This document shows, piece by piece, positions 3,001 through 43,623 of a stretch of DNA of 64,000 bases. This DNA comes from Eledone cirrhosa (Eukaryota): NCBI GenBank assembly GCA_964016885.1, contig OZ024750.1, positions 53,940,001 to 54,004,000 on the forward strand. The letters run 5' to 3'. Positions within the stretch are counted from its first letter, which is position 1, and every line of letters starts with the position of its first letter. The translations under genes and the position numbers were made by a program. The notes below the pieces were generated by a model. That model saw only the letters and a list, made by a program, of their open reading frames with translations, was not told the origin of the DNA and made no database searches.

Positions 3001-6000
3001 TGCTGTGAGGGTTAAATAACATAGACAGTGTCTTTCATGTGAAATATGCTGTCAGGGTTAAATAACATAGGCAGTGTCTTTCATGTGAAATATGGTGCTG
3101 TCAGGGTTAAATAACATAGGCAGTGTCTTTCATGTGAAATATGGTGTCAGGGTTAAATAACATAGACAGTGTCTTTCATGTGAAATATGCTGTCAGGGTT
3201 AAATAACATAGGCAGTGTCTTTCATGTGAAATATAGTGTCAGGGTTAAATAACATAGGCAGTGTCTTTCATGTGAAATATAGTGTCAGGGTTAAATAACA
3301 TAGACAGTGTCTTTCATGTGAAATATGCTGTCAGGGTTAAATAACATAGACAGTGTCTTTCATGTGAAATATGCTGTCAGGGTTAAATAACATAGACAGT
3401 GTCTTTCATGTGAAATATGCTGTCAGGGTTAAATAACATAGACAGTGTCTTTCATGTGAAATATGCTGTCAGGGTTAAATAACATAGACAGTGTCTTTCA
3501 TGTGAAATATGCTGTCAGGGTTAAATAACATAGGCAGTGTCTTTCATGTGAAATATGCTGTCAGGGTTAAATAACATAGACTGTCTTTCATGTGAAATAT
3601 GCTGTCAGGGTTAAATAACATAGACAGTGTCTTTCATGTGAAATATGGTGCTGTCAGGGTTAAATAACATAGACAGTGTCTTTCATGTGAAATATGCTGT
3701 CAGGGTTAAATAACATAGACAGTGTCTTTCATGTGAAATATGCTGTCAGGGTTAAATAACATAGGCAGTGTCTTTCATGTGAAATATGGTGCTGTCAGGG
3801 TTAAATAACATAGGCAGTGTCTTTCATGTGAAATATGGTGTCAGGGTTAAATAACATAGACAGTGTCTTTCATGTGAAATATGCTGTCAGGGTTAAATAA
3901 CATAGGCAGTGTCTTTCATGTGAAATATAGTGTCAGGGTTAAATAACATAGGCAGTGTCTTTCATGTGAAATATAGTGTCAGGGTTAAATAACATAGACA
4001 GTGTCTTTCATGTGAAATATGCTGTCAGGGTTAAATAACATAGACAGTGTCTTTCATGTGAAATATGCTGTCAGGGTTAAATAACATAGACAGTGTCTTT
4101 CATGTGAAATATGCTGTCAGGGTTAAATAACATAGACAGTGTCTTTCATGTGAAATATGCTGTCAGGGTTAAATAACATAGACAGTGTCTTTCATGTGAA
4201 ATATGCTGTCAGGGTTAAATAACATAGACAGTGTCTTTCATGTGAAATATGCTGTCAGGGTTAAATAACATAGACAGTGTCTTTCATGTGAAATATAGTG
4301 TCAGGGTTAAATAACATAGACAGTGTCTTTCATGTGAAATATGGTATCAGGGTTAAATAACATAGACAGTGTCTGTCATGTGAAATATGCTGTCAGGGTT
4401 AAATAACATAGACAGTGTCTTTCATGTGAAATATGCTGTCAGGGTTAAATAACATAGACAGTGTCTTTCATGTGAAATATGGTGTCAGGGTTAAATAACA
4501 TAGACAGTGTCTTTCATGTGAAATATGCTGTCAGGGTTAAATAACATAGACAGTGTCTTTCATGTGAAATATGCTGTCAGGGTTAAATAACATAGACAGT
4601 GTCTTTCATGTGAAATATGGTGCTGTCAGGGTTAAATAACACAGACAGTGTCTTTCATGTGAAATATGGTGCTGTCAGGGTTAAATAACATAGACAGTGT
4701 CTTTCATGTGAAATATGGTGCTGTCAGGGTTAAATAACATAGACAGTGTCTTTCATATGAAATATGCTGTCAGGGTTAAATAACATAGGCAGTGTCTTTC
4801 ATGTGAAATATAGTGTCAGGATTAAATAACATAGGCAGTGTCTTTCATGTGAAATATGCTGTCAGGGTTAAATAACATAGACAGTGTCTTTCATATGAAA
4901 TATAGTGTCAGGGTTAAATAACATAAACAGTGTCTTTCATGTGAAATATGCTGTCAGGGTTAAATAACATAGACAGTGTCTTTCATGTGAAATATAGTGT
5001 CAGGGTTAAATAACATAGGCAGTGTCTTTCATGTGAAATATGCTGTCAGGGTTAAATAACATAGGCAGTGTCTTTCATGTGAAATATGCTGTCAGGGTTA
5101 AATAACATAGGCAGTGTCTTTCATGTGAAATATGGTGCTGTCAGGGTTAAATAACATAGGCAGTGTCTTTCATGTGAAATATGGTGCTGTCAGGGTTAAA
5201 TAACATAGACAGTGTCTTTCATGTGAAATATAGTGTCAGGGTTAAATAACATAGGCAGTGTCTTTCATGTGAAATATGCTGTCAGGGTTAAATAACATAG
5301 ACAGTGTCTTTCATATGAAATATGCTGTCAGGGTTAAATAACATAGACAGTGTCTTTCATGTGAAATATGCTGTCAGGGTTAAATAACATAGACAGTGTC
5401 TTTCATGTGAAATATGGTGCTGTCAGGGTTAAATAACATAGACAGTGTCTTTCATGTGAAATATGCTGTCAGGGTTAAATAACATAGACAGTGTCTTTCA
5501 TGTGAAATATGCTGTTAGGGTTAAATAACATAGACAGTGTCTTTCATGTGAAATATAGTGTCAGGGTTAAATAACATAGGCAGTGTCTTTCATGTGAAAT
5601 ATGGTGCTGTCAGGGTTAAATAACATAGGCAGTGTTTTTCATGTGAAATATTGTGTCAGGGTTAAATAACATAGACAGTGTCTTTCATGTGAAATATGCT
5701 GTCAGGGTTAAATAACATAGGCAGTGTCTTTCATGTGAAATATGGTGCTGTCAGGGTTAAATAACATAGACAGTGTCTTTCATGTGAAATATAGTGTCAG
5801 GGTTAAATAACATAGGCAGTGTCTTTCATGTGAAATATTGTGTCAGGGTTAAATAACATAGGCAGTGTCTTTCATGTGAAATATTGTGTCAGGGTTAAAT
5901 AACATAGGCAGTGTCTTTCATGTGAAATATGCTGTCAGGGTTAAATAACATAGACAGTGTCTTTCATGTGAAATATAGTGTCAGGGTTAAATAACATAGG

Positions 6001-8047
6001 CAGTGTCTTTCATGTGAAATATGCTGTCAGGGTTAAATAACATAGACAGTGTCTTTCATGTGAAATATGCTGTCAGGGTTAAATTAGATAGACAGTGTCT
6101 TTCATGTGAAATATGCTGTCAGGGTTAAATAACATAGACAGTGTCTTTCATGTGAAATATGCTGTCAGGGTTAAATAACATAGGCAGTGTCTTTCATGTG
6201 AAATATTGTGTCAGGGTTAAATAACATAGGCAGTGTCTTTCATGTGAAATATGGTGATGTCAGGGTTAAATAACATAGGCAGTGTCTTTCATGTGAAATA
6301 TTGTGTCAGGGTTAAATAACATAGACAGTGTCTTTCATGTGAAATATGCTGTCAGGGTTAAATAACATAGGCAGTGTCTTTCATGTGAAATATGGTGCTG
6401 TCAGGGTTAAATAACATAGGCAGTGTCTTTCATGTGAAATATGGTGCTGTCAGGGTTAAATAACATAGACAGTGTCTTTCATGTGAAATATAGTGTCAGG
6501 GTTAAATAACATAGGCAGTGTCTTTCATGTGAAATATGCTGTCAGGGTTAAATAACATAGACAGTGTCTTTCATATGAAATATGCTGTCAGGGTTAAATA
6601 ACATAGACAGTGTCTTTCATGTGAAATATGCTGTCAGGGTTAAATAACATAGACAGTGTCTTTCATGTGAAATATGGTGCTGTCAGGGTTAAATAACATA
6701 GACAGTGTCTTTCATGTGAAATATGCTGTCAGGGTTAAATAACATAGACAGTGTCTTTCATGTGAAATATGCTGTCAGGGTTAAATAACATAGACAGTGT
6801 CTTTCATGTGAAATATAGTGTCAGGGTTAAATAACATAGGCAGTGTCTTTCATGTGAAATATGGTGCTGTCAGGGTTAAATAACATAGGCAGTGTTTTTC
6901 ATGTGAAATATTGTGTCAGGGTTAAATAACATAGACAGTGTCTTTCATGTGAAATATGCTGTCAGGGTTAAATAACATAGGCAGTGTCTTTCATGTGAAA
7001 TATGGTGCTGTCAGGGTTAAATAACATAGACAGTGTCTTTCATGTGAAATATAGTGTCAGGGTTAAATAACATAGGCAGTGTCTTTCATGTGAAATATTG
7101 TGTCAGGGTTAAATAACATAGGCAGTGTCTTTCATGTGAAATATTGTGTCAGGGTTAAATAACATAGGCAGTGTCTTTCATGTGAAATATGCTGTCAGGG
7201 TTAAATAACATAGACAGTGTCTTTCATGTGAAATATAGTGTCAGGGTTAAATAACATAGGCAGTGTCTTTCATGTGAAATATGCTGTCAGGGTTAAATAA
7301 CATAGACAGTGTCTTTCATGTGAAATATGCTGTCAGGGTTAAATTAGATAGACAGTGTCTTTCATGTGAAATATGCTGTCAGGGTTAAATAACATAGACA
7401 GTGTCTTTCATGTGAAATATGCTGTCAGGGTTAAATAACATAGGCAGTGTCTTTCATGTGAAATATTGTGTCAGGGTTAAATAACATAGGCAGTGTCTTT
7501 CATGTGAAATATGGTGATGTCAGGGTTAAATAACATAGGCAGTGTCTTTCATGTGAAATATTGTGTCAGGGTTAAATAACATAGACAGTGTCTTTCATGT
7601 GAAATATGCTGTCAGGGTTAAATAACATAGGCAGTGTCTTTCATGTGAAATATGGTGCTGTCAGGGTTAAATAACATAGACAGTGTCTTTCATGTGAAAT
7701 ATTGTGTCAGGGTTAAATAACATAGGCAGTGTCTTTCATGTGAAATATGGTGCTGTCAGGGTTAAATAACATAGGCAGTGTTTTTCATGTGAAATATTGT
7801 GTCAGGGTTAAATAACATAGACAGTGTCTTTCATGTGAAATATGCTGTCATGGTTAAATAACATAGACAGTGTCTTTCATGTGAAATATGGTGCTGTCAG
7901 GGTTAAATAACATAGGCAGTGTCTTTCATGTGAAATATGCTGTCAGGGTTAAATATCATAGGCAGTGTCTTTCATGTGAAATATGCTGTCAGGGTTAAAT
8001 AACATAGGCAGTGTCTTTCATGTGAAATATGGTGTCAGGGTTAAATA
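1..8047. repeat. Tandem minisatellite, 46-bp unit with a 49-bp variant, roughly 170 copies, truncated at the window start
   Basis: Unit TGTCAGGGTTAAATAACATAG(A/G)CAGTGTCTTTCATGTGAAATAT(GC/AG/GG/TG/GGTGC). TGTCAGGG recurs at 5 and 51. The array ends abruptly at ~8047. Confidence 0.98.
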
Positions 8048-13497: not shown

Positions 13498-16420
13498 TTA
13501 CAGAACTTCTTGGTACACAATGTTTGTGGTTTTACCGTTTGGAGCAAATGCATAAAGGTTTCTTTTGCTTCTCACTCTGGAACATCCAACATGTAGCTGA
13601 CCGTGCGAAAAGCATGGCTCTTCTAGGTTTATTCCCGCGACGGACAATGTTTGCCCCTGAGACTTATTTATCGTCATAGCGAAACTACAACGAACTGGAA
13701 ACTGGAGCCTCCTAAATGAAAAGGGGATCTCTGATGTTGACGGACAAAGGGGAATCCTTGGGATAAAAACATTTTCCCCTTTCCACACCCCGAGAGAATC
13801 GTCGCCTCGATCAAGTTTTGCGTTAGTTTATTTACTGTAAGGTGGGTGTAGATTCCTCAAAAGCATAATTGGGCATCCTTGCTTAAGTTCCAATCGATGA
13901 GATGGCAACCCGGAGGGGTTCAATGAGTTAAGAAACTCAATTGGGTAGTTAATGGAGTCTGTGACTGTATCTATGGACTTGTATGTACACGAAGCTGTAG
14001 GAAGAGACTTAAGCAGTTGTCCGTTGATTTTGTCGACAGTCTCATTTTTCGGAGTCAGTATTGCCCTTTCGCACAGCCAGTTTGGATTTTGGTAGTTAGT
14101 GCTCAACTCAGGGAATACTGTATCTGTCAAGTCGTCAGCACTGTCGACTAAATTGCAGACCGGCTCGAGAGAGATTTTTTCATCTTCATCAAGTGGCACT
14201 TTGTCGTTGCCAAGTGTCAATAGGTTGGTAGCAAACTCTGATGACACTTGGTCACCAAGCATCTGAGCTCTCATGTAGAGAGCGTTAATGTTGTGACATA
14301 ACGCCAAAGCGGAGATGACTTTAAGCATGCTCAAATAGCTTCAGCCCTTGTTCCTTTGGGAATAACAGGGAGGGTTTGTCTAAATCTCCGGATAAAAGGA
14401 CAGTCACGCCTCCCATGGGATCCTGGGAGTCTCTTATGTCTCTTAAAGTCCGGTCCAGTGCCTCCAAACTCCTTTATGAGCCATGGTACAGTCGTCCCAA
14501 AAAAATAAGTTCACACCTTTTAAGCAGTTCTGCCTTTTCTGATCCTTTGGTAATATTACAGCAGGGTGTGTCATTTGCTGTCATATTGAGGGGGAGTTTG
14601 AAGACTGAATGTGCTGTCCTGCTCCCAGGAAGCAAGGTTGCTGCAATACCGGAAGACGCAACAGCAAGTGCAAGGAGAAGCCGTATGACAAAAGTCTTCC
14701 CTGTGCCTCCAGGGCCGTCTAAGAAAAAGATTCCTCCCGTACGGCGGTGGACACAGTCAGCAATAGTGTTATATGCTCGTTCCTTTCCTGCAGCACCATT
14801 GGTTCATGTTCAGTGACATATGTTAGTCAAGCTGTCAGTGTCGTAGGATAGTTCCCGAAGTATTTCTGCGGAAATGATGTCGGAGCCTGTTCTGTTGGTT
14901 TGGGGCAGGCCATATGTCTGCAGTGCATTTCCCACCCATTGCAGCAATCATATTTTCAATTTCAATAAGTGCTTTGTTGTAGATTTCATCTGTGAAGCCT
15001 ACTTCCATGTCAGGAAGTTGTAATTGTGCTTGATGCCTGAAGTCCTCAGAGAGGTCATCTCTGTACTTGAGCCACAAGAAGGAAGGATCGGGCAATTCAC
15101 CAGTGTACAGTAAGACAGCAAAAAGCTTCCTAAGGCTGTGTGGCATTTGTGAAACAACTGTTTCTGCTAAAGTGGCATCCCATTGAGCACCATCTTCCAG
15201 TAGTCCACGCCTGAGGCAGGCCTCTCTCTGTACGTGTTGCAAATTTGGCCATCAACACTTCTTAGGTGTTGAAAACTGGTTGGTCCTCTAAGCATACGCA
15301 GGTAGTAACATTCTTGGTAGATGGGGGGCACTGTGTTAAAATCTGGATGACCATCAACGCTTTCACCTTTGATTCTTGGCTTCCATGAATACTTTTCCCA
15401 TTTGTAGAAAGAAGGGACTTGGGGATACAGCAAAGTGCGAGTGAATGCGTCGCCTTGACATAGTTGAAAGAATGCAGTAAGAGTTGTGTTCCTTGGCTGC
15501 AAAGCCCTCAGAAAAGCTGTTTGTTTTGTATAGTACACTCTTTGGCCGTTTTCCAGGTGCACAGCAAGGTGTTGGACAGCAGGGTATCTTCTGTGCATTG
15601 AGAAACGGTAAATTCGCCAAAAGGTCTCGCTGGTACTTATATCATGCTGATTGGTACTGTGCAACTTCATCCCGTTTGTTTCCTTCTTTAAGCCTGAACA
15701 CAGTGACATCCGGGCCCTTATTTATATACTTGCAGACATATTTGATTGATTTAATAGAGTTGCACCATTCAACATTTATGTGGGAGTTGAACGCCTTGAG
15801 TAGTAATGGGCAGTACGGTACAATCCATCGGTTGTCAATTTCATGTTTTCCAACCAGTGCTGTTAGTCCTCCGTCCTCAGGGCTTATTCGTCTGTATGAT
15901 GGGTATCCATCATCAGCAGTTTGAGTTTTGCGAAGGAAGGCTTTTGGGTATTTTTTTGAGCAAATACCGTTGTTCAAACACGGGGAGTTAGATTTGAAGC
16001 CACGTCCACAAGGACCGTGAACCATGTGTGCCGTAACCCTGTCTAATAGGGTTTTGTCAGTTTGCGGGTTTGGAAGCTCTGCGGATATAATCTTGTCGAT
16101 GTCATCTGTGGTGATTTTTGTCGACAACCAAATAAGAATGTGAGCATGGGGGAGTCCCCGCTTCTGCCAATCAATTGTGTACATGTAACATTGCACAAGT
16201 CCAAATATCTGGCCCTTTGTGATAAGGTCCATTAATTTGTATACTTTTTTAGCTCGAAAACTCTGGATGAGAAGTCATGACGACCGCTGGGCTGTTGTCC
16301 TGGAAGGAGTTCATGGGCAATTTCTTGCCATGAAGGATTGCATGTAAAAGTAATAAATAGGTCTGGTTTACCGTACTCGCGCACATACGTCATTGCGTCC
16401 TGGGTTCTCCTGGGCTTGGC
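13498..16420 (-). pseudogene. Helitron Rep/PIF1 helicase (RepHel), frameshifted, N-terminus missing
   Basis: KPDLFITFTCNPSW (Rep motif 1), WQKRGLPHAHILIWL (HUH), KYVCKYINKG (catalytic tyrosines), Walker A GPGGTGKTF (~14690-14718), ERAILTPKN, and QFPVRCSFAMTINKSQGQT (PIF1 C-terminal motifs). Confidence 0.95.
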
Positions 16421-16968: not shown

Positions 16969-17658
16969 ATCATCATCATCATCATCATCATCATCATCGT
17001 TTAACGTCCATTTTCCACGCTTGCATGGGTTTGGACAGGAGTTTTCCCACTTGAGGCAAGATTGGTTGACTTGCTCGTATAGGACTGTCTGGCGGGTTTT
17101 CTACGGCTGGATGCCCTTCCTAACACCAACCACATTTACAGTGTGGACTGGGAGGTTTTTACCGTGTTACCTACACGGCCACATTACAGCGTAGATTGTG
17201 TGTTTTTTGTCATGACACCTACACGACCTCATTTGTTTCGGACTGGATGTTGTGGTACCAACATAACTTCACATTGGAAGGGGTGGTGTGGATGGGGTGG
17301 GGGTAGTGGGAAGGGGGTGTATTTTTGTTAGAGGTGCCTACTGACTAGGTTTCGCTTTGTACTTAGGCAAGGCGGGTCTTCTGTATTACTGTGTAGCGCC
17401 AAAGATCTCGGTCCAGTGACATTGTCTTGGAGAGGTGTAAGTGTGTGAGATCAGAATTTATCAAGTCGTCCCAGGTTTTTCTGGGTCTGCCTACTCCGTG
17501 GCTACCGTCTATTTTTATCGCCCTGCACTTTTTTATACAGCTGTCGTCTTTCATGCGCATCACGTGACCGTACCAACGTAGTCTTCTCTCGAGTAAACAA
17601 CATCTGATCCCTCTTATTCCTAATTTCTCCCTTAGTTCATTTATGCTTTGCCGTTCAC
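16969..17658 (-). mobile_element. RTE-clade LINE copy 1, 5'-truncated (~0.7 kb), (GAT)n tail
   Basis: (CAT)n at 16969-16998 on the plus strand. ORF end LRWYGHVMRM...GRPRKTW. Near-identical to the 3' end of copy 2. Confidence 0.93.
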
Positions 17659-17664
17659 ATTTTT

Positions 17665-17798
17665 TATTTCTTGTCCAATTCTTTAAAGTTTTATCTTAGT
17701 TTCTTGTCCTATTCTTTTAAAGTTTTATCTTAGTTTCTTGTCCTATTCTTTTAAAGTTTTATTTTAGTTTCTTGTCCTGTATTTTTAAAGGTTTATAT
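17665..17798. repeat. ~34-bp tandem repeat, about 4 copies
   Basis: TTTCTTGTCCTATTCTTTTAAAGTTTTATCTTAG repeated. Confidence 0.9.
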
Positions 17799-20300: not shown

Positions 20301-22479
20301 ATCATCATCATCATCATCATCATCGTTTAACGTCCATCTTCCACGCTTGCATGGGTTTGGACGGGAATTTTCCCACTTGAGGCAAGATTGGTTGTCTTGC
20401 TCAGGACTGTCTGGTGGGTTTTCTACGGCTGGATGCCCTTCCTAACACCAACCACTTTTACAGTGTGGACTGGGAGGTTTTTACTGTGTTACCTACATGG
20501 CCACATTACAGTGTGGACTGTGTGTTTTTTTGTCGTGACACCTACACGACCTCATTTATTTAGGACTGGATGTTGTGGTACCAACATAACTTTACATCGA
20601 AAGGGGTGGTGTGGATGGGGTGGGGGTAGTGGGAGGGGGTGTATTTTTGTTAAGAGATGCCTACTGACTGTAGGTTTTGCTTTTTACTTAGGCAAGGCGG
20701 GTCTTCTGTATGACTGTAGTGCCAAAGATCTCGGTCCAGTGACATTGTCTTGGAGAGGTGTAAGCGTGTGAGGTCGGAATTTATCATGTCGTCCCAGGTT
20801 TTTCTGGGTCTGCCTACTCCGTGGCTACCATCTATTTTTATCGCCCTGCACTTTTTTATACAGCTGTCGTCTTTCATGCGCATCACGTAACCATAGCAAC
20901 GTAGTTTTCTCTCGAGTAAACAACATCTGATCCCTCTTATTCCTAATTTCTCCCTTAGTTCATTTATGCTTTGCCGTTCACGTATATTACTATTACACAT
21001 CCAACGGTACTTGCAAGCTTCGTTCCTCTCCAGTTTGCGTATATACTCTGCACACAATGCCCAAGTCTCACTGCCATGTAACATTGCTGTTCGTATGCAG
21101 GCATCATATAGCCTGCCTTTCATTTTTAGAGAGAAACCTTTAACGGCCAATAGTGGTATAAGCTCTCTGAACTTTTTCCATCCCGTTCTGACTCTAGCTA
21201 CTGTACTTTCAGAGTGCCCTCCACCACTGCTGATTTTGTAACCCAGGTAACGGAAGGTGTCCACTATTTCTATAGAACCATCTGTGCAATGGAATGAGCT
21301 AGTATTCTGTGGGCAGTATTCTGTAGTATTCTTGCTGCTACTTATTGCCCTTGAGCACCGGCCACATATAAAATCTATATTCTTAGTTAGCTTACCTGTG
21401 ATCCCACTAGATCTTTTATGCACCCATACTTTGCATTTGGGACATAAAATGGAGTTTCTGCCTACTCTTTTCCTACACACTGAGCATGGCCATTTCCCAG
21501 ATGGAACCAGTGCCCTATTTTCCTTCCTACAAACTAGAACTTTAGTCTTAGACAGGTTAATTTTAAGGCCTTTTGATTCTAGGCCATGCTTCCATGTTTG
21601 GAATTTCTTCTGTTATAGCCTGAAGAGCAATAATAAACAGGAGGGGGCTAAGGACAGAGCCTAGATGATCACCTACTTTTACGCTAAATTCTTCACTATA
21701 TTCATTGTTAATTCTAACATTGCTGACTGTATCTTTATACATGGCTTGTTTAGCTCTCACAAGCCATTCATCAACACCTAGTTTTCTGAGAGCCCACCAG
21801 ATAATGGGGCGTGGGACTCTGTCAAAGGCTTTCTCCAAGTCAACAAAAGCTAAATATAGGGGTTTACTTTTAGCTAGGTACTTCTCCTGTAGTTGTCGTA
21901 CAATGAAAAGAGCGTCTGTGGTACTTTTACCTGACACAAACCCAAACTGCATTTCATCTAGATCAATTCGCTCTCTGATTAGTTGCGCTATTACTTTTTC
22001 TGTGACCTTCATGACCTGGTCAATTAATTTAATGCCTCTATAGTTTCCCCTATCTAGGGCATCTCCTTTACCCTTGTAGCAGTTAAAGATGATGATGCTA
22101 CGCCAGTCCTTCGGAACGACCCCATTCTGTATGACTTGGTTTACTATCCGGGTGACTATAGAGTGTCCCACCGTTCCAGATGCTTTCATCATTTCAGCAA
22201 CTATTTCCGAAGGCCCAGCCGCCTTGCCTGTCTTCATATTTTTGATCGCCTTACTTATTATACTACCTTCAACTTGCACTGCTGGTCCCTCTATTCGATC
22301 GATGTGGGGGAGACTGTCTTTCTCCCATTTATTTTCCTCATTTAGTAGCCTTTCGTAGTGACACTTCCAAGCTACCTTCTTATCAGCGTCAGTGATCGCA
22401 AGTTCACCATCATCATTAAGGACACACTTCTCCCTGACAATATCACGGTTTTCCTTGACACATTGCCTAGCAATCCTGA
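20301..22479 (-). mobile_element. RTE-clade LINE copy 2, 5'-truncated (~2.2 kb), YADD motif deleted
   Basis: RT motifs KGKGD..NYRGIKL, QFGF, FVDLEKAFDRV, GSVLSPLLF. A Cys-rich insertion (CxxC..CxxCxxWVHKR) is present. (GAT)n tail. Confidence 0.95.
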
Positions 22480-22528
22480 TATATATATATATATATATAA
22501 ATTATTTTCGCTCTACATGGCTGAATAC

Positions 22529-26708: not shown

Positions 26709-29700
26709 ATCATCATCATTTTCGTTTATCGTCCATCTTCTACGCTAGCATGGGTTAGACGGGAATTGTCCCACTTGAGGCAAGGTTGGTCGGGTGACCG
26801 TGTCTCGCTCGTATAGGACTGTCTGGCGGGTTCTCTATGGCTGGATGCCCTTCCTAATGTCAACCACATTTACAGTGTGGACTGGGAGCTTTTTACCATG
26901 TTACCTACACGGCCACATTATAGCGTGGACTGTGTGACACCTACACGACCACATTTATTTACGACTGGATGATGTGGTACCAACATAACTTTACAGAGAG
27001 AGGGTGGTGTTGGTGGGAGTGGAAGGATGGAGTAGGGGTAGTGGATTGGGGTGAATATTTGGTTTGAAGGAGCATACTGACTGTAGGTTAATTTTGCTCG
27101 TAGGGAAGGTGGGTCTTCTGTATACTGCGTGGCGCCAAAGATCTCGATCCGGTGATATTATCTTAGAGAGGTGCAAGTGTGCAAGGTTGGAATTTATCAT
27201 GTCTTCCCAGGTTTTTCTGGATCTACCTACTCTGTAACTTCCATCAATTTTGATCGCCCTGCACTTTTTTATACAGCTGTCGTCTTTCACGCACATCACG
27301 TGACCATACCAACGTAATCTACTCTTAAGTAAACAGCATCTGATCCCTCTTATTCCTAATTTCTCACTTAGTTCGTTTATGTTTTGCCATTCGTGTATTA
27401 TTACATATCCAACGGAGCATGCATGTTTCGTTCCTTTCCAGTCTGCGCAGATCCTCTGCACGTAATGCCCAGGTCTCACTGCCATGTAGCATTGCTGTTT
27501 GTATACAGGCATCATACAATCTGCCTTTCATTTTTAGAGAGAAACCTTTTTAAGGCCAACAGCGGTATAAGCTCTCTGAACTTTTTCCATCTCGTTCTAA
27601 CTCTGGCTACTGTACTTTCAGAACACCTTCCACCACTGCTGATTTTGTCACCCAAGTAACGGAAAGTGTCCACTATTTCTATAGAACCATCTGGGCAGTA
27701 GAATGAGCTAGTATCCTGTGGGCACTTGCTACTTATTGCACCTAAGCATCAGCCACATATAAAGTCTACGTTCTTAGATAGTTTACCTGTGATCCCACTA
27801 CATCTTTTTTGTACCCATAGTTTGCATTTGGGACAAAGAATGGAATTTCTGCTTACTCCTTTCCTACACACTGAGCATGGCCATTTCCCAGAGGCCACCT
27901 GTGCCCTATTTTCCTTTCTACAAACTAGAACTTTAGTCTTAGACAAGTTAACTTTAAGACCTTTTGATTCTAGGCTTCCATGTTTGGAATTTCTGCTCTA
28001 GTTCCACCATAGATTCAGCTATGGGAGTTAGATCATCTGCATATAGGAGCTCCCATGGGCAGCCGGTCTTGAACTCCTCTGTTATAGCCTGAAGGGCAAT
28101 AATAAACAGGAGGGGGCTAAGGACAGAGCCTTGATGATCACCTACTTTTACACTAAATTCTTCACTATATTCATTGTTAATTCTAACATTGCTGACTGTA
28201 TCTTTATACATGGCTTGCATAGCTCTCACAAGCCATTCATCTACTCCTAGTTTTCTAAGGGCCCACCAAATAATGGAGTGTGGGACTCTGTCAAAGGCTT
28301 TCTCCAAGTCAACAAAAGCTAAGTAGAGGTGTTTACTTTTAGCTAGGTACTTCTTCTGTAGTTGTCGTACAAGGAAAAGAGCATTTGTCGTACTTTTAAC
28401 TGACACAAACCCAAACTGCAGTTCATCTAGATCAATTCGATCTCTGATTAGTTGTTCTATAACTCTTCCTGAGACTTTCACGAGCTGGTCAACTAACTTA
28501 ATGCCTCTATAGTTTACCCTATCTTGAGCATCTCCTTTACCCTTGTAGCAGTTAACGATGGTGCTGCTATGCCTGTCCTTTGGTATGGCCCCATTCTGTA
28601 TTACTTGGTTTACTATCTGAGTGACCATAGTATGTCCCACCATTCCAGATGCTTTCAACATCTCAGCAACTATCTCCAAAGGCCCAGCTGCCTTGCTTGT
28701 CTTCATATCTTTGATTGCCTTACTTATTATACTACCTTTAACTTGCACCGCTGGTCCCTCTCGTAGTGACACTTCCAAACTACCTTCTTATCAGTATAAG
28801 TGAGGGCAAGTACACCATCATCATTACGGACATACTTCTCCTCGACAATATCACGGTTTTCCTTGACACATTGTCTTGCAATCCTGAACACCTCACGTTT
28901 TTGGTCCTCGCATTGTAGAACATGCTTGAACTTTCTTTCCTCTGCTTCTCTTCTTGCAAGGTACACTTGTCTCCTAGCTTCTCTCCTGGCCACTTGATAG
29001 TGTTCTCTACTTCCCCCATCCTGCCATACTTTCCAAGCCTGCATTTTGGCCTTGATTGTCTCCTCCACCTTACTGTACCACCACCAACTTACTCTCCTCC
29101 TGCCTATAGGTCTGTTGCCTTCAGCAGGTTAACTTTCAAGTATTCCCACTGTTCCTCTATATTGTACGTCTCTATTTGCTCTTCCTTACTGTCAAAAGCA
29201 TCAAGTAATATGCTTTTAAATTTGTTACTGGCTGTGGGGTCCTTCAACTTCCATATTCTTCTCCTCAAGTAGTCCTCCTCTGTCGTCGAGTATGTCTAGC
29301 CCTAACTATGAGGCTATGTTGGGAGGTGCATTCTTCAGGGGGGAGGGGTTAGTGTTTACAACAGACACTCTGTCATGTCTTCTAATAAGGATATAATCTA
29401 TCTGGCTGGCGTGTTCCCCTGATCTATAAGTGATTAAGTGATTGTCTCGTTTTTTGAAGTTTGTGTTACAGATAGTTAGGTTATTAGCATCACAGAATTC
29501 CAGGATTCTGAAGCCTTCCTCATTTCTAGTACCAAACCCATAACCTCCATGGATTCCGTCATAGCCGTCAGAATGTTGTCCAACATGACCATTTAGGTCA
29601 CCAGCAATAACTATGTAGTCACTGTCGGTTATTTGGGAGGTAGTGAGCATTAACGTCTCATAGAATCTGTCTTTTATAACGCTAGGCAGTCCAGATTGGG

Positions 29701-30360
29701 GTGCATAAGCGGATATTATTGTCACAGTAGTTCTATTTAGGACAAGTCTTATTTTGATTATTCTGTCGTTCACTCTATTTACGTCAATTACCTTATCTAC
29801 ACATTTTTCTGCTAACATAATTCCTACTCCACCCAGCCCATTTTCATTTCCCACCCAGAAAAGTTTATAGCATCGTTTTTTATCCACAATGAATCTAGCA
29901 GACCCACCCCTCCACCTAGTCTCTTGAACACAGCAAACATCAACTTCTTTACGTTCAAGCATCTCTACAACCTCGTTAGAGCGACCTTTTAAAGTGCCTA
30001 TATTCATGGTACCAACTCTGAAGTCTTGGATTTCTTTTGGTGGGTGGAATAAAATAATAGCTAAACATAGAAACGACTCAACAGGTACACAAATTAGGGG
30101 GGTGGGGGTGGCTACAGAAATAGAATTAGGAAAACCTAGGCTAAACAGAAAACATGAATGGAATAACAACAACCATACACAAACACACAATGGTGATCTA
30201 AGAGAAATATAAATAAATATACAACGATGCAATAACATCCACATATAAACACATACTAGTGAGCAAAGGTAGATTATAAACACATACAGACTCAGACACC
30301 AAAAATAAATTAATAAATAAAAAATGTTATAGGAACACAACGGAAGGAAACTAATCACCG
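26709..30360 (-). mobile_element. RTE-clade LINE copy 3, near full length (APE endonuclease plus RT), inactivated
   Basis: APE motifs GTMNIGTL, CVQETRW, SAYAPQ, GDLNGHVG, SQIDYIL. RT motifs FVDLEKAFD, QGSVLSP, LYADDL. Frameshifts and a (GAT)n tail. Confidence 0.96.
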
Positions 30361-31369
30361 AAGGTGTTACAGATATGTGTGATGAAAGAACTTTGAGAAA
30401 CTATATAGTTTTAACTATATAGTTAAAAAAAATATATAACAATAGTTGTATTTAGAAGTTTATTCTTATTCTTACATTATAGTTTAGATAGTGCTTCAGT
30501 GAAGCATATATTTGCTAAGCTTCATCAGAGAAGTATTAAGGTTCTATGGATTAGTTATTTTTGGTCGTTTTGGTGTCAACTTGTCAAAGGGGAGGCAAAC
30601 ACATCATCATAATTACTTAACTGGGAACAATTTGAAGGATCAATACAGTCAATAAATTGACTCTTTTAGTAATGGAGAAAAAAAGCAATGCTACCTCACT
30701 TTCAAAATTCGTCTGGAGCCAGAAGGATTGAATGTAGAAAGGAAAGCAAAATATATATAATGAGTGGAGAAGTGGCTGCAATCTGTGCACTATGAAGAAA
30801 CTAAAAATTCTATCGCTGCCATTTAAATCATCAACAAAAGAAAAGAAAACCTTCCTCCTTGTTTTGCACAAAAAACTATTACGAGCCTTTAAGCACAGCC
30901 CCACTCGAATTGAACCCCATATCCAACCGCACTAAACTCCACCATCCCCCTATTCAATACATCCAGCATAGCAACGTATGAGCCCAACATTACAATGTGA
31001 ATACTAAATGCAGTGCATCAGACAGATGGTGCTGGATGAGCCACATACCTGCCAGTGGCCAAACACAGCTTGTAGATATAACACAGTACTGTGTGAAATA
31101 CAATGTTTAAAACATACAACCTTTCAGGACCAGTATAACTGGACACAAGTCCCTATATTGTGACATATCTTTACCCTGCCCATTCTAGCACTAGTAAATA
31201 TTTCAAAACATTTAAACCCCCTAAGAAATACTGTGAGAGCAGGATTGCATATGATCCATGACTGCTAATCATAAGAGCTGAAGAGAGGACTGTCACTTAA
31301 TATGATCCAAAATATCTTAAATGGTACCTTGGCATTTATATAAAGAATTGTGTGTTGACATGACACTCT

Positions 31370-32713: not shown

Positions 32714-33079
32714 TTAATATTGGTCTAAATTCTAATTTAAGACAGCATACACTTCATTTCAGAAATATTCTGCACTTCTACCAAAATATCATATATCACC
32801 AACAATAATGTTTATATTTTTCTACTTTCAAGAAAATAACATATATTTTCACTATAATGCCTATATATTCTCCACTTCCACAAGTATATGTGTGTCTATA
32901 TATACACAAATATTTATATATATTACTCCTATAATGTTTACCTGTTGCTCTCACAAATATATATATATCTGTACAGGATTAACCAAAATTGTGTGAATGT
33001 GTATGGAAACAGACACATTGGGTGTATAAATGTGTCATATTTACTTGTGTATTTCTCCACAAATTGAAAAGAAAATAAT

Positions 33080-33257
33080 TGTTTCCACTTTAGGCACAAG
33101 GCCAGCAAATACCCAGTGCATTACTGGTACTTTATTTTATCGACCCCGTAAGGATGAAAGGCAAAGTCAACCTCGGCGGGACTTGAACTCAGATCGTAAA
33201 GGGACGTAACTATGCTGGAAAGCATGGCGTCCGACCCTCTACCGATACTGCCAATCC
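33080..33257 (-). mobile_element. tRNA-derived SINE family A, young copy
   Basis: Minus-strand A-box TGGCAGTATCGG and B-box GAGTTCAAGTCC. TSD GAAAATAAT (33071/33258). Near-identical to 41923-42098. Confidence 0.9.
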
Positions 33258-34344
33258 GAAAATAATGAACAGTCTTAATTGATTTACACTTCTTTCTGGT
33301 TATGCTGATATGTTTTTGTGCTCAACGTGTGTATTTACATATATATTCACAGAGTTTCATTTAAGCCTCTGCAATGTATACAGATATGTGTTTATAGTAT
33401 ATTTCAGCTGCTTAGTTCACAATTTAATATATACCACTTTAATGTTTATTATTTTGCAACAGTTTTTCATTTTCCAAAACAGAATTGATGTCAATAGTTT
33501 AGACAGTTAACTCTTTGAATTATAAACTAGCTTCTGTGTTGTGTGAGCGTGAGACGACATCTTCAACATCATTGACTAGTCCACGTTATCAGTGGACATG
33601 ATCGAGCATTACACCAACCGTGAGTGTCACTCAAACCTTTACAAATGTCAGGTTAAGTATCCACTCCACTCAGTACTGACATTGCCTTTTTTAACCCCAT
33701 TTTGCAGACTATCTTTTGGTTCCTTAAAACCATTCCTTGCTCTACTGGATCTATGGGTTACTTCTTCTACACCTTGCTTCCCTGCTTTTTTGCTTTTCTT
33801 ATATCAGACACTTTTTTCATTCTGTCAACTAAATATCAAAATATTCCAACCACTGGTTGCTTTCCAAAACTCTGCTCACATTATCTTATAATTAATGAGC
33901 TAAGCAAAACCCTGTAAAATGCTGCCTTTCATAATCAAGTTTCTTTGTAAAAATGGTTAAATTCCTGGAAATGAACTCTTTTGACTCCATACTTCTATCC
34001 TTTCAAGAGCATGTCTACCTTAATATTTATCGAACCATGGCATGAAAATTTGAAGAAAAAAATATACCAACTTTTCATTTTGAAAACCCCTGAACTGTTG
34101 ACAATTATGGCATGTGAGTTACTACATAAGATTCATTTTACTGAAAAGTTTAATGTCAAAATCTGTCAGTGTCATAAAAAACTTCTACAAAATTACATCT
34201 GTTACTCAGTTGCATAAGACTCAGTTGTATGCTTTTGGCAAGGGTTTTAAGTGTCCATGCAGTCATGAGCAGACACAGATACCGTCTTGCTCCTACTTCC
34301 TTTGATCAAGCAGAACATACAGGATTGACAGCTGAGAGAGGGCT

Positions 34345-39262: not shown

Positions 39263-39678
39263 TTCTCTCCCTTCTTTTGCCGAAAAGAAGTAAGTGACGT
39301 AGTCACTACTTTAAAAATGATAGCGCATTGTCTTCAAAATGTTTTTAATTAAACATATGGTATATTGCCAAATATACTATACATACATTCATGTATACAT
39401 TGCTATTTCAGAGCACCAATCCTAATATATATATATGGGTATTTATGTATATGTATATATATAGACATGTGAAAACACCTTAACTCTATCTGAACATTTC
39501 CCTGTTTCAAATATATACATATATATATATATAAACAATGAGTTATATGCTTTGTTGATGAGTATTCAACAGGGTTATGTTCATAACATATATGAAGCAC
39601 TCTACACATAAATTTTATCTGGAGTATTATAATATTAACAATAGTAATAAATGGAAAATATTACTATAGCATCATATT

Positions 39679-39738
39679 TATTTTATTATACATATTTCAA
39701 GGATACTAAATTATAGTATGCTTTCATCAGATAAAATA
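39679..39738 (-). ncRNA. Type I hammerhead ribozyme (inverted pLTR copy)
   Basis: Exact reverse complement of 42554-42613. Confidence 0.8.
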
Positions 39739-41679
39739 CAATATTTGATGTATAAGATAGTGACATACCCAGAGTATAAACCTCCACAGTCAGCTTACAA
39801 TGGATATAATTTAATAGGGATATATTAAATAGATAATAAGACCGTTATTATAGACACTTGAAAATTTAGAAAAATAGTGTAGTTATATTGGTCGTGGGGC
39901 AGCTGTTAAAGGGTGATGTATTAACTAGTGGAGATATATGTATAAATATATATAACCATAAAAATATACACGTATATATGGTTATATCCGTGTATATAGA
40001 TCCATATATATATACAGACGCACATCTTATGTTTTCGTGTTAGGAAAAATATTTATATTGGTTATATCAAAAATTGTTATGGGTAATTATAAGCATATAT
40101 GTATATATAGTTACATATATAGATATATATATGTAAATAACTAATTTTATGAATAAATGTATGAGAGATTTATCCATATATTATTATTTACTCTTATAAA
40201 TTAACTCTTATTAATTATAACGTTAAAAGATTTTTTTCTAAAACTATATTCTAAAGGTGATTATACATAATATAGATAAAGGTACTTGTTATGTTGATTA
40301 AATATATATATATATGTTTATATCTAGTGGAACCTATAATTATATTTGTATATTGTTATATATATGGTAAATAAGTGAATTATATATATATACTTATTAG
40401 ATAGCTAATAATTTAAGGAAACTGCCGGAAATTGCTTGTATCGTGATGATGCATTATTCATAGTAAATAACCATAGCAATAGTGCCGTTAATAAAAAAAG
40501 AAAATCATTATAGACTTCTTTAATAATTATGGCCTTAAACTATAAATAGAAAACAATAATAGAATAGCTAATTTCCTAGACGTTACCTATACTACCCATT
40601 CCATAAGTTAAACGAAAATCTAAACTATGTTAGCTTTTATTCCAACCACCCTAGAAACGTAAAGAAAGCTATAGTCAATAGTGTCCAACATAGAATTTCA
40701 AGACTCTCCGCTAATAAACAATATATTCGATAATAAAGCAGAATACTATAACAAAGCCCTAACAGAGCAGGATACAATAATGAAATTAATTACATACAAA
40801 TGGATAATTATACCCCATATGCAAAAGTATATAATAATAATATAAATAAACTACATAACCAGAATAACTATGATGTAAACAAAAATGTAAAAATCACACA
40901 GAAAAGTCAGAACCCGCTCTATAATTTGGTTTTCACCACCAACTTCCATAGGAATTAAGACATGTTTAGCACAGCAGTTCTTTAAAGCTCTCGATAAATG
41001 TTTTTTAAAACCCATAGATATTACCAGATTCTTAATAGACACACAATTAAACTCTCATACTCAACAACTATGAACGTAGCCCAAAATATAGCAAAAATTA
41101 ATAATAGGAATCTCAAATTAAACCAATTGGAAATAACCCCCACAATAACAATAATATTGGTAATAGCATTAGTAATAATAATAATTTACACTTGAATAAT
41201 AGAGCTATATCATCAAATAATAACAAGAAATTGTAATTGTAAAAACAGTCTTTCTTGCCCGTTAGATAATAATTGCTTCAATAGAAATTTAGTATATTTA
41301 GTACTTTTAAAACTAATGATAAACTGTATAATTACATAAGGACGACTTCATCGAAATTTAAAGAACATTGGTATAACCATAAACATACACTTAAATGAAT
41401 AGATAAGAAATTCTCAACTTCCCTATCACAATTAATTTGGTCTTTAAAAAACAAAAACATTAATTATTCAATATCTTGGCAAAAACTTCAAAGTGCATCA
41501 CCATACCTAAATTCCTCTATTTCCAGAATCTGTCATCTCTGTAATGAAGAAATCTTCCATATTATTACTAACACAGGATCTATTATTAATAAAAAGAATG
41601 AGGTTTTTAGCTCTTGTTTACATAGGATTTCTAAATCTTTTCATAAAATGTATAGTTAAATTATTAGCTATCTGTAGTA

Positions 41680-41739
41680 TACTCTTTTACTCTTTTACCT
41701 GTTTCAGCCATCCGGCTGAGGCCATGCTGGGGCACCGCC
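41680..41739. mobile_element. Short SINE-like repeat fragment inserted between the PLE ORF and the right arm
   Basis: GC-rich TTTACCTGTTTCAGCCATCCGGCTGAGGCCATGCTGGGGCACCGCC with a (TACTCTTT) end. A diverged relative lies at ~34855-34905. Confidence 0.6.
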
Positions 41740-41922
41740 CTTATTTACCATATATATAACGATATACAAATATAATTATAGGTTCCACTAGATATAAACA
41801 TATATATATATTTAATCAACATAACAAGTACCTTTATCTATATTATGTATAATCACCTTTAGAATATAGTTTTAGAAAAATTTTTTTATAAAACGTTATG
41901 AGTAATAAGAGTAAATAATAAT

Positions 41923-42098
41923 TGTTTCTACTTTAGGCACAAGGCCAGCAATTACCCAGTGCATTACTGGTACTTTATTTTATCGACCCCGTAAGGATGA
42001 AAGGCAAAGTCAACCTCGGCAGGATTTGAACTCAGATCGTAAAGGGACGTAACTATGCTGGAAAGCATGGCGTCCGACCCTCTACCGATACTGCCAAT
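41923..42098 (-). mobile_element. tRNA-derived SINE family A inserted in the right PLE arm
   Basis: 13-bp TSD AGTAAATAATAAT (41910-41922, 42099-42111). Absent from the left arm. Confidence 0.93.
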
Positions 42099-42553
42099 AG
42101 TAAATAATAATATATGGATAAATCTCTCATACATTTATTCATAAAATTAGTTATTTACATATATATATCTATATATGTAACTATATATACATATATGCTT
42201 ATAATTACCCTACAACAATTTTTTATATAACCAATATAAATATTTTTCCTAACACGAAAACATAAGATGTGCGTCTGTATATATATATGGATCTATATAC
42301 ACGGATATAACCATATATACGTGTATATTTTTATGGTTATATATATTTATACATATATCTCCACTAGTTAATACATCACCCTTTAACAGCCGCCCCACGA
42401 CCAATATAACCACACTATTTTTCTAAATTTTCAAGTGTCTATAATAACGGTCTTATTATCTATTTAATATATCCCTATTAAATTATATCCATTGTAAGCT
42501 GACTGTGGAGGTTTATACTCTGGGTATGTCACTATCTTATACATCAAATATTG

Positions 42554-42613
42554 TATTTTATCTGATGAAAGCATACTATAATTTAGTATCCTTGAAATAT
42601 GTATAATAAAATA
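42554..42613 (+). ncRNA. Type I hammerhead ribozyme in the PLE pseudo-LTR
   Basis: UAUUUUAU-CUGAUGA-AAGCAUACUA uaauu UAGUAUCCUU-GAAA-UAUGUA-UA-AUAAAAUA: 8-bp stem I, 9/10-bp stem II, loopless palindromic stem III, AUA site at 42605. Confidence 0.82.
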
Positions 42614-42730
42614 AATATGATGCTATAGTAATATTTTCCATTTATTACTATTGTTAATATGTATATATATATATATGAATTGTATTATGTTTGGTCTACA
42701 ATTAATATAACTTATTTTTCCTTGCTTCAG

Positions 42731-43304
42731 ATCAACCCCTGATTTCGGAAGTCTTGCAAAAGAAGCCCTCTTAAAGAACTGCAGTAAAGCTCAAGCCAGG
42801 TTGGATCACCTACAAACAGCACACACTATCCCATCCAGTGGCATTAGTACCAAGAACAAATCCAACCGTTTAGAAACATCCAAACATGCACGATGTCGAT
42901 CAGTACCTGGTCCCTGGCCAACTGATGTTTCTCATATAGAGGGCCAAATTGAATCAGGGGAAGGCCAATTCTCTTGCCCAAATTCTCCTTTAGATCTTAA
43001 ACAAATGACTCTTGATTCCAAAAAGCCTACAGACTTGAAGAAAATTCCCTCATCTTCTTCATCTCCAACAAACAGCCAGATGGGGTCTCCAAAACCAAAG
43101 AAAACAATTTTCGAAGGATTTCGAAATACTTTACGGAAGTCAAAAGGAGATCTTTCTGGCACTAAATCATCTGAAAGTTTCACCAATGCTCATTCAATGC
43201 CGGATATTGTACAAGAAAATAAGGAAAGATCCAACAGTGATTCCATATCTTCAAACAGAACCACTGGAATGGACATTAGCCAATCAGATTTAGAAACCAT
43301 TCCG
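42731..43304 (+). CDS. Internal coding exon of a host gene (Ser/Pro/Lys-rich, probably disordered region); product not recognised
   Basis: Acceptor TTTTTCCTTGCTTCAG at 42730 and donor CCG|GTAAGT at 43305. 191 open codons STPDFGSLAKEALLKN...SQSDLETIP. Confidence 0.85.
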
Positions 43305-43369
43305 GTAAGTTTCGTTGTTTTTAACAATTAATTTTTTTACCTCATCATTATTAAAAAGGTCAAGTTTGT

Positions 43370-43623
43370 TCCTAGCCCAGAGACTCATCAGTTTGAAGCT
43401 TATCCCAGTTTTATTGACATTAAGTGACTGAGTGTACGTTATTTCCCCCACCCTTAGACGGAACTCCCCTCTATTGCAGTGTTACTTCTCCCCCCCCCCC
43501 CCCTCCCAGCTGCTGCTGCTGCAACATGAAATAAAATGCCTGGCTGTGAGACACAATAAACTACGTCATCAGAGAATCAAACTCATAACCTTACAATTGT
43601 AAAGTCAACACCCTAACCACTAG
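43370..43623 (-). mobile_element. Diverged tRNA-derived SINE (family B-like head) abutting the 28-bp array
   Basis: CAACATGAAATAAAATG..GAATCAAACTCATAACCTTAC..CCCTAACCACTAG. Confidence 0.65.

What the first reader, a model, noticed from the sequence alone, without database searches (positions are those of the whole stretch)
39632..42730. Sense hammerhead 125 nt from a host splice acceptor, inside a ~745-bp intronic hairpin containing its own antisense copy
Seen: the near-identical inverted pLTR arms each carry the same hammerhead. The plus-strand copy would cut after 42605, 125 nt upstream of the 3' splice site at 42730, and the right arm ends 70 nt before the exon. Inference: in the host pre-mRNA, the left arm is transcribed first and can pair with the ribozyme and silence it, forming a long dsRNA next to the branch-point region. 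That dsRNA is a candidate ADAR substrate; A-to-I editing is extensive in coleoids, if this is one. Cleavage, editing and splicing could therefore be coupled. The loopless stem III suggests dimer-dependent activity.
Basis: partly seen in the sequence, partly recalled or inferred. Interest (0 to 1): 0.75.

Follow-up and report, generated by a model that had tools for sequence, protein, structure and literature searches.

The report
Two-armed Penelope insertion in Trio intron
A broken Penelope-type jumping gene with its usual mirror-image ends sits just before an exon of a Trio-like gene; its RNA likely folds back on itself and would keep its small self-cutting motif silent, so it is probably an ordinary passenger, although its two ends are oddly more alike than the rest of the element suggests.

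Summary
Observation largely right; regulatory reading unsupported. Window 39536-42660 is one decayed Hydra-clade Penelope-like insertion (tail, inverted arm, broken RT/GIY-YIG ORF, direct arm) in a (TA)n tract of a ~103.5-kb intron of a Trio/Kalirin-like gene. Both arms carry the family's standard minimal hammerhead (predicted cut after 42605; acceptor AG 42729-30). The ~745-bp stem is split by a young ~180-bp SINE. The layout is family-typical: 21 of 66 other sampled loci with this family end have the same outward-pointing pair. The ribozyme is predicted to need a dimer partner, has no sense partner in 264 kb examined, and loses to the antisense arm (-122 vs -13 kcal/mol); the predicted branch point and AG lie outside the stem. 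Editing of the stem is likely, but that is known for Penelope repeats; no RNA data were available. One real oddity: the arms differ by ~0.8% and share a ~30-nt deletion found nowhere else in the assembly, while the nearest other copy is ~8% away, which points to arm-to-arm gene conversion or a missing source copy. The scan noted two-armed Penelope-type insertions in this genome before, and homogenised arms around a Penelope in another genome.

The parts
39515..39535 (.). (TA)n target tract, left flank
   Evidence: sequence
39536..39631 (-). Family 'tail' extension, on the left arm only
   Evidence: 3 differences in 91 columns from the majority of 13 other tails
39632..40375 (-). Left (inverted) pseudo-LTR arm; antisense to the right arm in the host pre-mRNA
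39670..39750 (-). Hammerhead copy in the left arm (core 39730-39695); reads as anti-ribozyme on the Trio strand
40376..41740 (+). 5'-truncated, frameshifted RT and GIY-YIG ORF remnant with 3' UTR; YRDD at 40439, CxCX5C at 41232, CxxC at 41531, CxH at 41615 (Hydra-clade motifs)
41741..42660 (+). Right (direct) pseudo-LTR arm, ending at the family's usual tail-less end
41910..42109 (.). Young ~180-bp SINE-like insertion with 11-nt target duplication (41910-41920 and 42099-42109); makes a one-sided bulge in the stem. The SINE label is from size, target duplication and copy pattern, not from a library hit
   Evidence: 39 other copies at 98-99% among 40 scored
42478..42503 (+). Junction of a ~30-nt deletion shared by both arms and private to this locus
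   Evidence: absent from 12 of 12 aligned relatives; 2 matches genome-wide, the two arms
42543..42622 (+). Sense minimal type I hammerhead: core 42562-42568 and 42594-42597, palindromic 8-nt stem III with two G-U pairs in the dimer, predicted cut after 42605
42661..42730 (+). Host intron end: (TA)n tract, candidate branch A at 42705 or 42714, pyrimidine tract, AG 42729-42730
42731..43304 (+). 574-nt exon of a Trio/Kalirin-like gene, between the second GEF region and the SH3/Ig/FN3/kinase exons; phase 2 to phase 0

Best explanation
This is a decayed Hydra-clade Penelope-like retrotransposon that landed in a (TA)n tract near the end of a Trio-like intron, and its RNA likely folds back so that the element's own hammerhead would stay silent and the host exon would splice normally. 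Shown: the layout, the motifs, the host exon, and that the same layout recurs across the family. Inferred: insertion by the Penelope machinery produced both arms, one with the tail and one without. Predicted: as the intron is transcribed, the left arm is made 2-3 kb earlier, pairing starts at the inner ends, steps over the SINE bulge and captures the hammerhead as it emerges. ADAR likely edits the AU-rich stem, and editing of core adenosines would disable the ribozyme further (own knowledge of the hammerhead core). The branch point and AG stay outside the stem. The hammerhead is cargo that serves the element family's RNA, not the host gene. Why the arms are so alike is unresolved: arm-to-arm gene conversion about 0.5, recent copying of a decayed source missing from the assembly about 0.4, selection on pairing about 0.1.
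For: Same outward-pointing pair in 21 of 66 other loci carrying this family end, among 75 examined. Tail on one arm only in 9 of 9 distinct same-family pairs read by eye. Inverted 5' copies and one-sided tails are described as typical (PMC8557442). The hammerhead equals the family mode: 5 of 58 intact-core copies are identical over 60 nt, and its stem III is the commonest type, 36 of 58. Duplex with the left arm -122.1 versus own fold -13.2 kcal/mol; the stem III dimer helix is worth only -2.2. Unpaired probability with the arm: core 0.00, cut site 0.00; branch region 0.34 to 0.30; tract/AG 0.51 to 0.51. One sense intact-core hammerhead in 264 kb; the other copies found are antisense. A single minimal hammerhead showed no cleavage, and dimers showed low cleavage (PMC4209133). 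The Anolis Penelope hammerhead needed protein, and no RNA-seq ends were seen at its cut site (PMC11167929). ORF broken by several stops and frameshifts.
Against: No RNA-level test was possible, so silence and normal splicing are predictions. The arms are far more alike than independent decay predicts: 5 substitutions in 599 nt against about 48 expected at the 8.0% distance to the nearest copy; selection for pairing would also give this. In human cells an inverted Alu pair 24 nt from an exon shifts its splicing, and the effect changes over 25-75 nt (PMC2533698), so 70 nt is within range. The 5' part of the gene, upstream of the 264 kb examined, was not scanned for a sense partner, and a partner could come in trans from other family transcripts. 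The fold models are equilibrium models on partial sequences.
Confidence: 0.8

Rival explanations
1. One reading: the antisense arm is a conditional safety catch, and editing or unwinding frees the ribozyme so that cleavage next to the acceptor tunes Trio output.
For: Sense orientation 125 nt from a real acceptor; intact core and a predicted dimer fold; arms about ten times more alike than the nearest other copy, the second-lowest ratio of 20 pairs and the lowest among arms of 200 nt or more; precedent in the CPEB3 ribozyme (PMC10919898).
Against: Needs a second sense copy, and none was found in 264 kb. The CPEB3 ribozyme has a 2-3 min half-life and 9931 nt of lead; here the lead is 125 nt and published minimal hammerheads are slow or inactive alone. 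Editing enough to melt the stem would hit core adenosines (own knowledge). No locus-specific change in the ribozyme. The SINE bulge is tolerated in one arm.
Confidence: 0.05
2. The hairpin, not the ribozyme, incidentally perturbs splicing of the exon, as inverted Alu pairs do; a side effect of a passenger insertion.
For: The stem ends 70 nt from the AG; inverted Alu pairs near an exon shift splicing in a distance-dependent way (PMC2533698).
Against: Predicted accessibility of the branch region and AG is nearly unchanged. Skipping shifts the frame before the SH3/Ig/FN3/kinase exons, so a strong effect should be selected against. In the Alu case, sequence elements within Alu2 also mattered.
Confidence: 0.12
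3. Sub-question, arm likeness by conversion: the insertion is as old as its broken ORF, and the arms have been homogenised by arm-to-arm gene conversion, which copied a private deletion into both.
For: The deletion junction occurs only in the two arms. No copy closer than 85-88% over long ORF stretches, 94% over one 255-nt piece, among the 40 best candidates of each of two searches; nearest ORF relatives 6.5-19% away by substitutions. In 19 other pairs the arm-to-arm versus nearest-copy ratio has median 1.0; here it is 0.09 (one pair dropped because its nearest copy was identical). Conversion between palindrome arms is known (PMC3723533, abstract).
Against: Identity runs to the very ends of the arms (no difference in the outer 249 nt), where conversion should be weakest (inference). 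The SINE was neither copied nor removed. Only 3 of the 8 shared substitutions in 283 columns are private, and the unpaired tail is just 3 of 91 from the majority, so the element may be younger than the ORF comparison implies.
Confidence: 0.5
4. Sub-question, arm likeness by youth: a helper element recently re-copied the RNA of an already decayed copy, so both arms inherited the same deletions; the source is lost, polymorphic or unassembled.
For: Uniform ~0.8% arm divergence, inner and outer; a young SINE on top (98-99% to many copies); both ends have family-typical forms.
Against: A source old enough to be this decayed should usually be fixed and present, yet searches find none. Contigs from two samples cross the right junction unbroken, a weak sign against an empty allele.
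Confidence: 0.4

Closest known systems
Hydra-clade Penelope-like elements (Craig et al. 2021, PMC8557442; passages and section 11 read)
   Same: C-terminal GIY-YIG after RT, CxCX5C linker, CxxC and CxH motifs, canonical hammerhead in the pseudo-LTR, (TA)n targets, inverted 5' copy, one-sided tail; the clade is reported from Mollusca.
   Different: Tail ~96 nt rather than 30-40; ORF dead and 5'-truncated; arms unusually alike for the element's decay. No tree against reference Hydra sequences was built.
Minimal hammerheads of metazoan Penelope-like elements (Cervera and de la Pena 2014, PMC4209133; parts 1-2 of 4 read)
   Same: Type I order, long stem II, palindromic loop-less stem III, predicted dimer; close pairs on opposite strands are mentioned there.
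   Different: A10.1-U11.1 instead of the usual G-C, no extra base after A9, and a C-C mismatch at stem II position 4 in 54 of 58 copies. These are family traits, not locus traits.
Inverted intronic Alu pairs (Lev-Maor et al. 2008, PMC2533698; passages) and edited Penelope repeats in lizard and frog (PMC5625713, PMC10636886; passages)
   Same: Repeat-derived intronic fold-back near an exon, a likely ADAR substrate.
   Different: Here one insertion supplies both arms; no editing or splicing effect is shown.
CPEB3 intronic ribozyme (PMC10919898; abstract and passages)
   Same: Self-cleaving motif upstream of an exon in a host intron.
   Different: CPEB3 is an active monomer 9931 nt from its exon with a shown effect; this one is dimer-type, repeat-borne, antisense-paired and untested.
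Arm-to-arm gene conversion in human Y palindromes (PMC3723533; abstract only)
   Same: Inverted arms much more alike than age predicts.
   Different: Arms of 0.75 kb in a retrotransposon; conversion is only one of two live explanations here.

Membership tests
Hydra-clade Penelope-like element | RT followed by a C-terminal GIY-YIG endonuclease in one ORF | tested here: met
   The remnant aligns in order to two full-length 720-750 aa homologues bearing YRDD and, in one, the YIG motif (E 3e-23 and 9e-26). Pfam names neither the remnant, the relatives nor these homologues, so the domain labels rest on motifs.
Hydra-clade Penelope-like element | CxCX5C linker; CxxC and CxH near the C terminus | tested here: met
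   41232, 41531, 41615 against the definition
Hydra-clade Penelope-like element | N-terminal RWK and DKT motifs | tested here: inconclusive
   The window copy is truncated before them; both homologues show DKT, one shows RWR
Hydra-clade Penelope-like element | Insertion into (TA)n; pseudo-LTR with hammerhead; inverted 5' copy; one-sided tail | tested here: met
Hydra-clade Penelope-like element | Phylogenetic placement with reference Hydra RTs | not tested
   No named reference sequences in hand
Minimal type I hammerhead | Conserved core boxes and a UH cleavage site | tested here: met
   AUA triplet in 53 of 58 copies
Minimal type I hammerhead | Stems I and II supported by conservation and covariation | tested here: met
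   Stem II position 5 A-U 43 / G-C 10, position 6 U-A 40 / C-G 11, position 9 U-A 29 / C-G 17, of 58; stem I paired in 50-56 of 58 per position. Positions 1-3 were largely fixed by the search pattern and the copies are related.
Minimal type I hammerhead | G10.1-C11.1 pair and an unpaired base after A9 | tested here: not met
   A-U in 58 of 58, selected by the pattern; described as highly conserved in PMC4209133
Minimal type I hammerhead | Palindromic stem III allowing a dimer | tested here: met
   The two-copy fold forms the 8-bp stem III, -29.0 versus 2 x -13.2 kcal/mol
Minimal type I hammerhead | Self-cleavage | not testable with these tools
   Needs an assay
Host-regulating intronic ribozyme (CPEB3 type) | Able to fold and cut as a monomer in the pre-mRNA | tested here: not met
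   Prediction only: no stem III loop, no sense partner in 264 kb, buried by the antisense arm
Host-regulating intronic ribozyme (CPEB3 type) | Conserved at the orthologous site; effect on host mRNA | not testable with these tools
   No relatives held for this genome; no RNA data
ADAR-edited intronic fold-back | Long near-perfect inverted arms in one intron on the transcribed strand | tested here: met
   co-transcription inferred from gene structure
ADAR-edited intronic fold-back | A-to-G clusters in RNA | not testable with these tools
   No RNA data could be examined

The most novel reading that the evidence does not exclude
The two arms are kept matched, by conversion plus selection, because the antisense arm is a safety catch on a live ribozyme 125 nt from a frame-critical exon of a neural gene; ADAR activity or a helicase sets how often the catch slips, so a dead retrotransposon has become an editing-sensitive switch on Trio output.
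Probability: 0.05. Interest if true: 0.7.

Novelty: new member of a known kind. Interest (0 to 1): 0.22.

Why it matters
As best explained it matters little: it is one of many hammerhead-bearing Penelope-like copies in this genome, and it illustrates why such copies can be tolerated in introns (a dimer-type ribozyme that arrives with its own antisense arm). Two modest uses remain. If conversion explains the arm likeness, arm identity cannot be used to date Penelope insertions, and such hairpins would stay good ADAR substrates long after the element dies. The locus is also a compact minigene test of whether a Penelope hammerhead ever cuts a host pre-mRNA. If the switch model held, it would be a retrotransposon ribozyme linking editing to splicing; I found no such case in the held library, which lacks most subscription journals.

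Tried and rejected
No RNA holder listed. The three runs laid are contigs of unrecorded kind from one study, on 42240-43480 only; they list no A>G differences and no splice joint, which says nothing about editing or splicing. The left arm and left junction were not examined with reads, so an empty allele is only weakly tested. Assembly artefact as the cause of arm likeness: rejected with moderate strength, because one run has a contig with the right-arm letters and another run of the same sample has the left-arm letters at 42391 and 42411, both crossing the deletion junction without a gap; these are single low-depth contigs and may be the assembly's source sample. Editing scars fixed in DNA: no A>G excess in the differences from the family majority (T>C 5 versus A>G 0 in the arm pieces, too few to judge), and the 4 outer-arm differences are not A>G on the transcribed strand in a consistent way. 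A conversion gradient (inner arm older than outer): rejected, 1 of 140 versus 4 of 459 substitutions; the lower inner identity comes from indels. The SINE as proof of great age: rejected, it is 98-99% identical to many copies. Local DNA-level duplication of the right arm: rejected, because the left arm has a family tail that the right arm lacks. Summed contig depth over the hammerhead is very high but is no copy number and was not used. Rfam and Pfam gave no useful hit. A whole-protein search of the genome returned no answer; neighbouring stretches were used instead. Lunse et al. on dimer cleavage is not held; only its title was seen in a reference list. A search for exon-tethering papers gave listings only and is not used. 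No supplements were read; the Hydra sequence files of PMC8557442 could bear on the clade call.

Full report
What is there. The inverted repeat is real: 39628-40195 pairs with 42096-42665 at 98.8% over 570 bp, and 40200-40375 with 41740-41916 at 92.7%. A ~180-bp insertion with an 11-nt target duplication splits the right arm; 39 other places among the 40 scored match it at 98-99%, so it is a young SINE-like repeat. Each arm holds the same hammerhead core. Stem I pairing places the cut after AUA at 42605, with an 8-nt palindromic stem III and no loop. Rfam does not report it, but 58 intact-core copies in 47 of 75 other loci show paired stems with two-sided changes in stem II, and 5 of them are identical to the window copy over 60 nt.

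The element. Between the arms lies a broken ORF on the + strand, with YRDD, CxCX5C, CxxC and CxH motifs in order. It aligns to two full-length homologues found with a relative's open frame. These motifs, the (TA)n target and the hammerhead match the definition of the Hydra clade of Penelope-like elements (PMC8557442, section 11); Pfam names none of these proteins. The left arm continues for ~96 nt into a family tail that the right arm lacks, so the insertion runs from about 39536 to 42660. An inverted 5' copy and a one-sided tail are the described norm. In this genome 21 of 66 other loci with this family end show the same outward-pointing pair (20 measured, 1 failed to align, 1 from a related family; loci were chosen by similarity to the window). 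The first search had 2035 candidates, of which 40 were scored, and an exact 36-mer occurs 26 times, twice here.

The host. The exon 42731-43304 encodes a stretch 53% identical to a protein named Kalirin/Trio. Further exons follow in order on the + strand across the 264 kb examined. A micro-exon ending about 60.8 kb upstream of the window joins it in phase, giving an intron of ~103.5 kb that holds both arms. Co-transcription is inferred from this gene structure, not seen in RNA. The exon is 574 nt, so skipping shifts the frame. That the animal is a coleoid is an inference from a mollusc homologue, the 3.0-Gb genome and earlier AI notes; it was not tested.

How it likely works. Predicted: the left arm is made first and pairs with the right arm as it emerges. 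For the ribozyme region the duplex is worth -122.1 kcal/mol against -13.2 for its own fold, and the core and cut site become fully paired. Without the arm the ribozyme would still need a second copy: the two-copy fold forms stem III, but that helix is weak (-2.2), and the only sense intact-core hammerhead found in 264 kb is this one. Published minimal hammerheads do not cut detectably as monomers and cut poorly as dimers (PMC4209133, parts 1-2 of 4); the Anolis Penelope ribozyme needs protein and left no read ends at its site (PMC11167929, passages). The CPEB3 precedent has a 2-3 min half-life and 9931 nt of lead (PMC10919898), against 125 nt here. Candidate branch adenosines at 42705 and 42714, the pyrimidine tract and the AG are host sequence outside the stem, and their predicted accessibility barely changes. 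Editing of the stem is likely: young repeats are the main ADAR targets in animals (PMC9989829, passages), octopus is rich in near-perfect fold-backs, and Penelope repeats are heavily edited in lizard and frog (PMC5625713, PMC10636886, passages). That makes editing expected rather than surprising, and editing of core adenosines would harm the ribozyme (own knowledge). A side effect on splicing cannot be excluded, since inverted Alu pairs act over similar distances (PMC2533698, passages).

The real oddity. The arms differ at 5 of 599 sites, yet the nearest other copy is 8.0% away over 440 nt of arm and 6.5-19% away in the ORF. Both arms share a ~30-nt deletion absent from 12 of 12 aligned relatives, and its junction matches only these two places in the genome at up to one mismatch. 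Both also lack a second ~25-nt family stretch at the SINE site, with different local junctions. In 19 other pairs the ratio of arm-to-arm to nearest-copy distance has median 1.0; here it is 0.09. One spacer-less pair is lower (0 of 101 nt), one pair was dropped because its nearest copy was identical, and arm lengths differ between pairs. No near-identical source was found. Contigs show both arm versions, which argues against an assembly artefact. Gene conversion between arms (known from Y palindromes, PMC3723533, abstract) and recent copying of a missing decayed source both fit. Against conversion, identity runs to the arm ends, only 3 of 8 shared substitutions are private, and the unpaired tail is only 3 of 91 from the majority. 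Selection on pairing is possible but is not needed. I noted the conversion idea before an earlier AI note on another genome raised it; that note is a lead, not support.

Verdict. A new member of a known kind. I found no paper on a Penelope hammerhead acting on host splicing, or on conversion between Penelope arms, in the held library. Interest 0.22; the switch model has probability about 0.05 and would deserve about 0.7.

Noticed in passing
window 43625-64000 and beyond: A 28-bp satellite of at least 20 kb (728 copies, 93% matches) starts ~320 nt after the Trio exon and fills most of the next intron; its minus strand carries the first hammerhead core box but no regular second box, probably by chance.
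   Followed up: no
window 1-8047: A 46/47-bp satellite (172 copies) in the same long intron, which at ~103.5 kb is far longer than the 1-28 kb introns around it.
   Followed up: no
window 13500-16300, minus strand: Fragments that look like a Helitron Rep/helicase (label from recalled motifs, no library hit).
   Followed up: no
window 17360-17700, 20650-22500, 27000-30400, minus strand: Fragments of RTE-like LINE reverse transcriptase and endonuclease frames (label recalled).
   Followed up: no
L036, about 55.4 and 57.4 kb upstream of the window: Two more related hammerhead copies in the same intron, both antisense to the gene; one has an intact core.
   Followed up: partly
window 40190-40230: The left arm has small local duplications exactly opposite the site where the SINE sits in the right arm; possibly a repair scar.
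   Followed up: partly
L010, L014, L022, L028: Other hammerhead families with the same stem I but different stems II and III lie within 1.5 kb of this family's copies, which suggests nested insertion into shared (TA)n targets.
   Followed up: no
window 33074-33266: A second copy of the same SINE-like repeat, 96% identical, 9 kb upstream.
   Followed up: no
L150 and L140: Short two-armed copies with 0 of 101 and 2 of 158 arm differences, lower than their nearest-copy distances; further candidates for arm homogenisation.
   Followed up: partly
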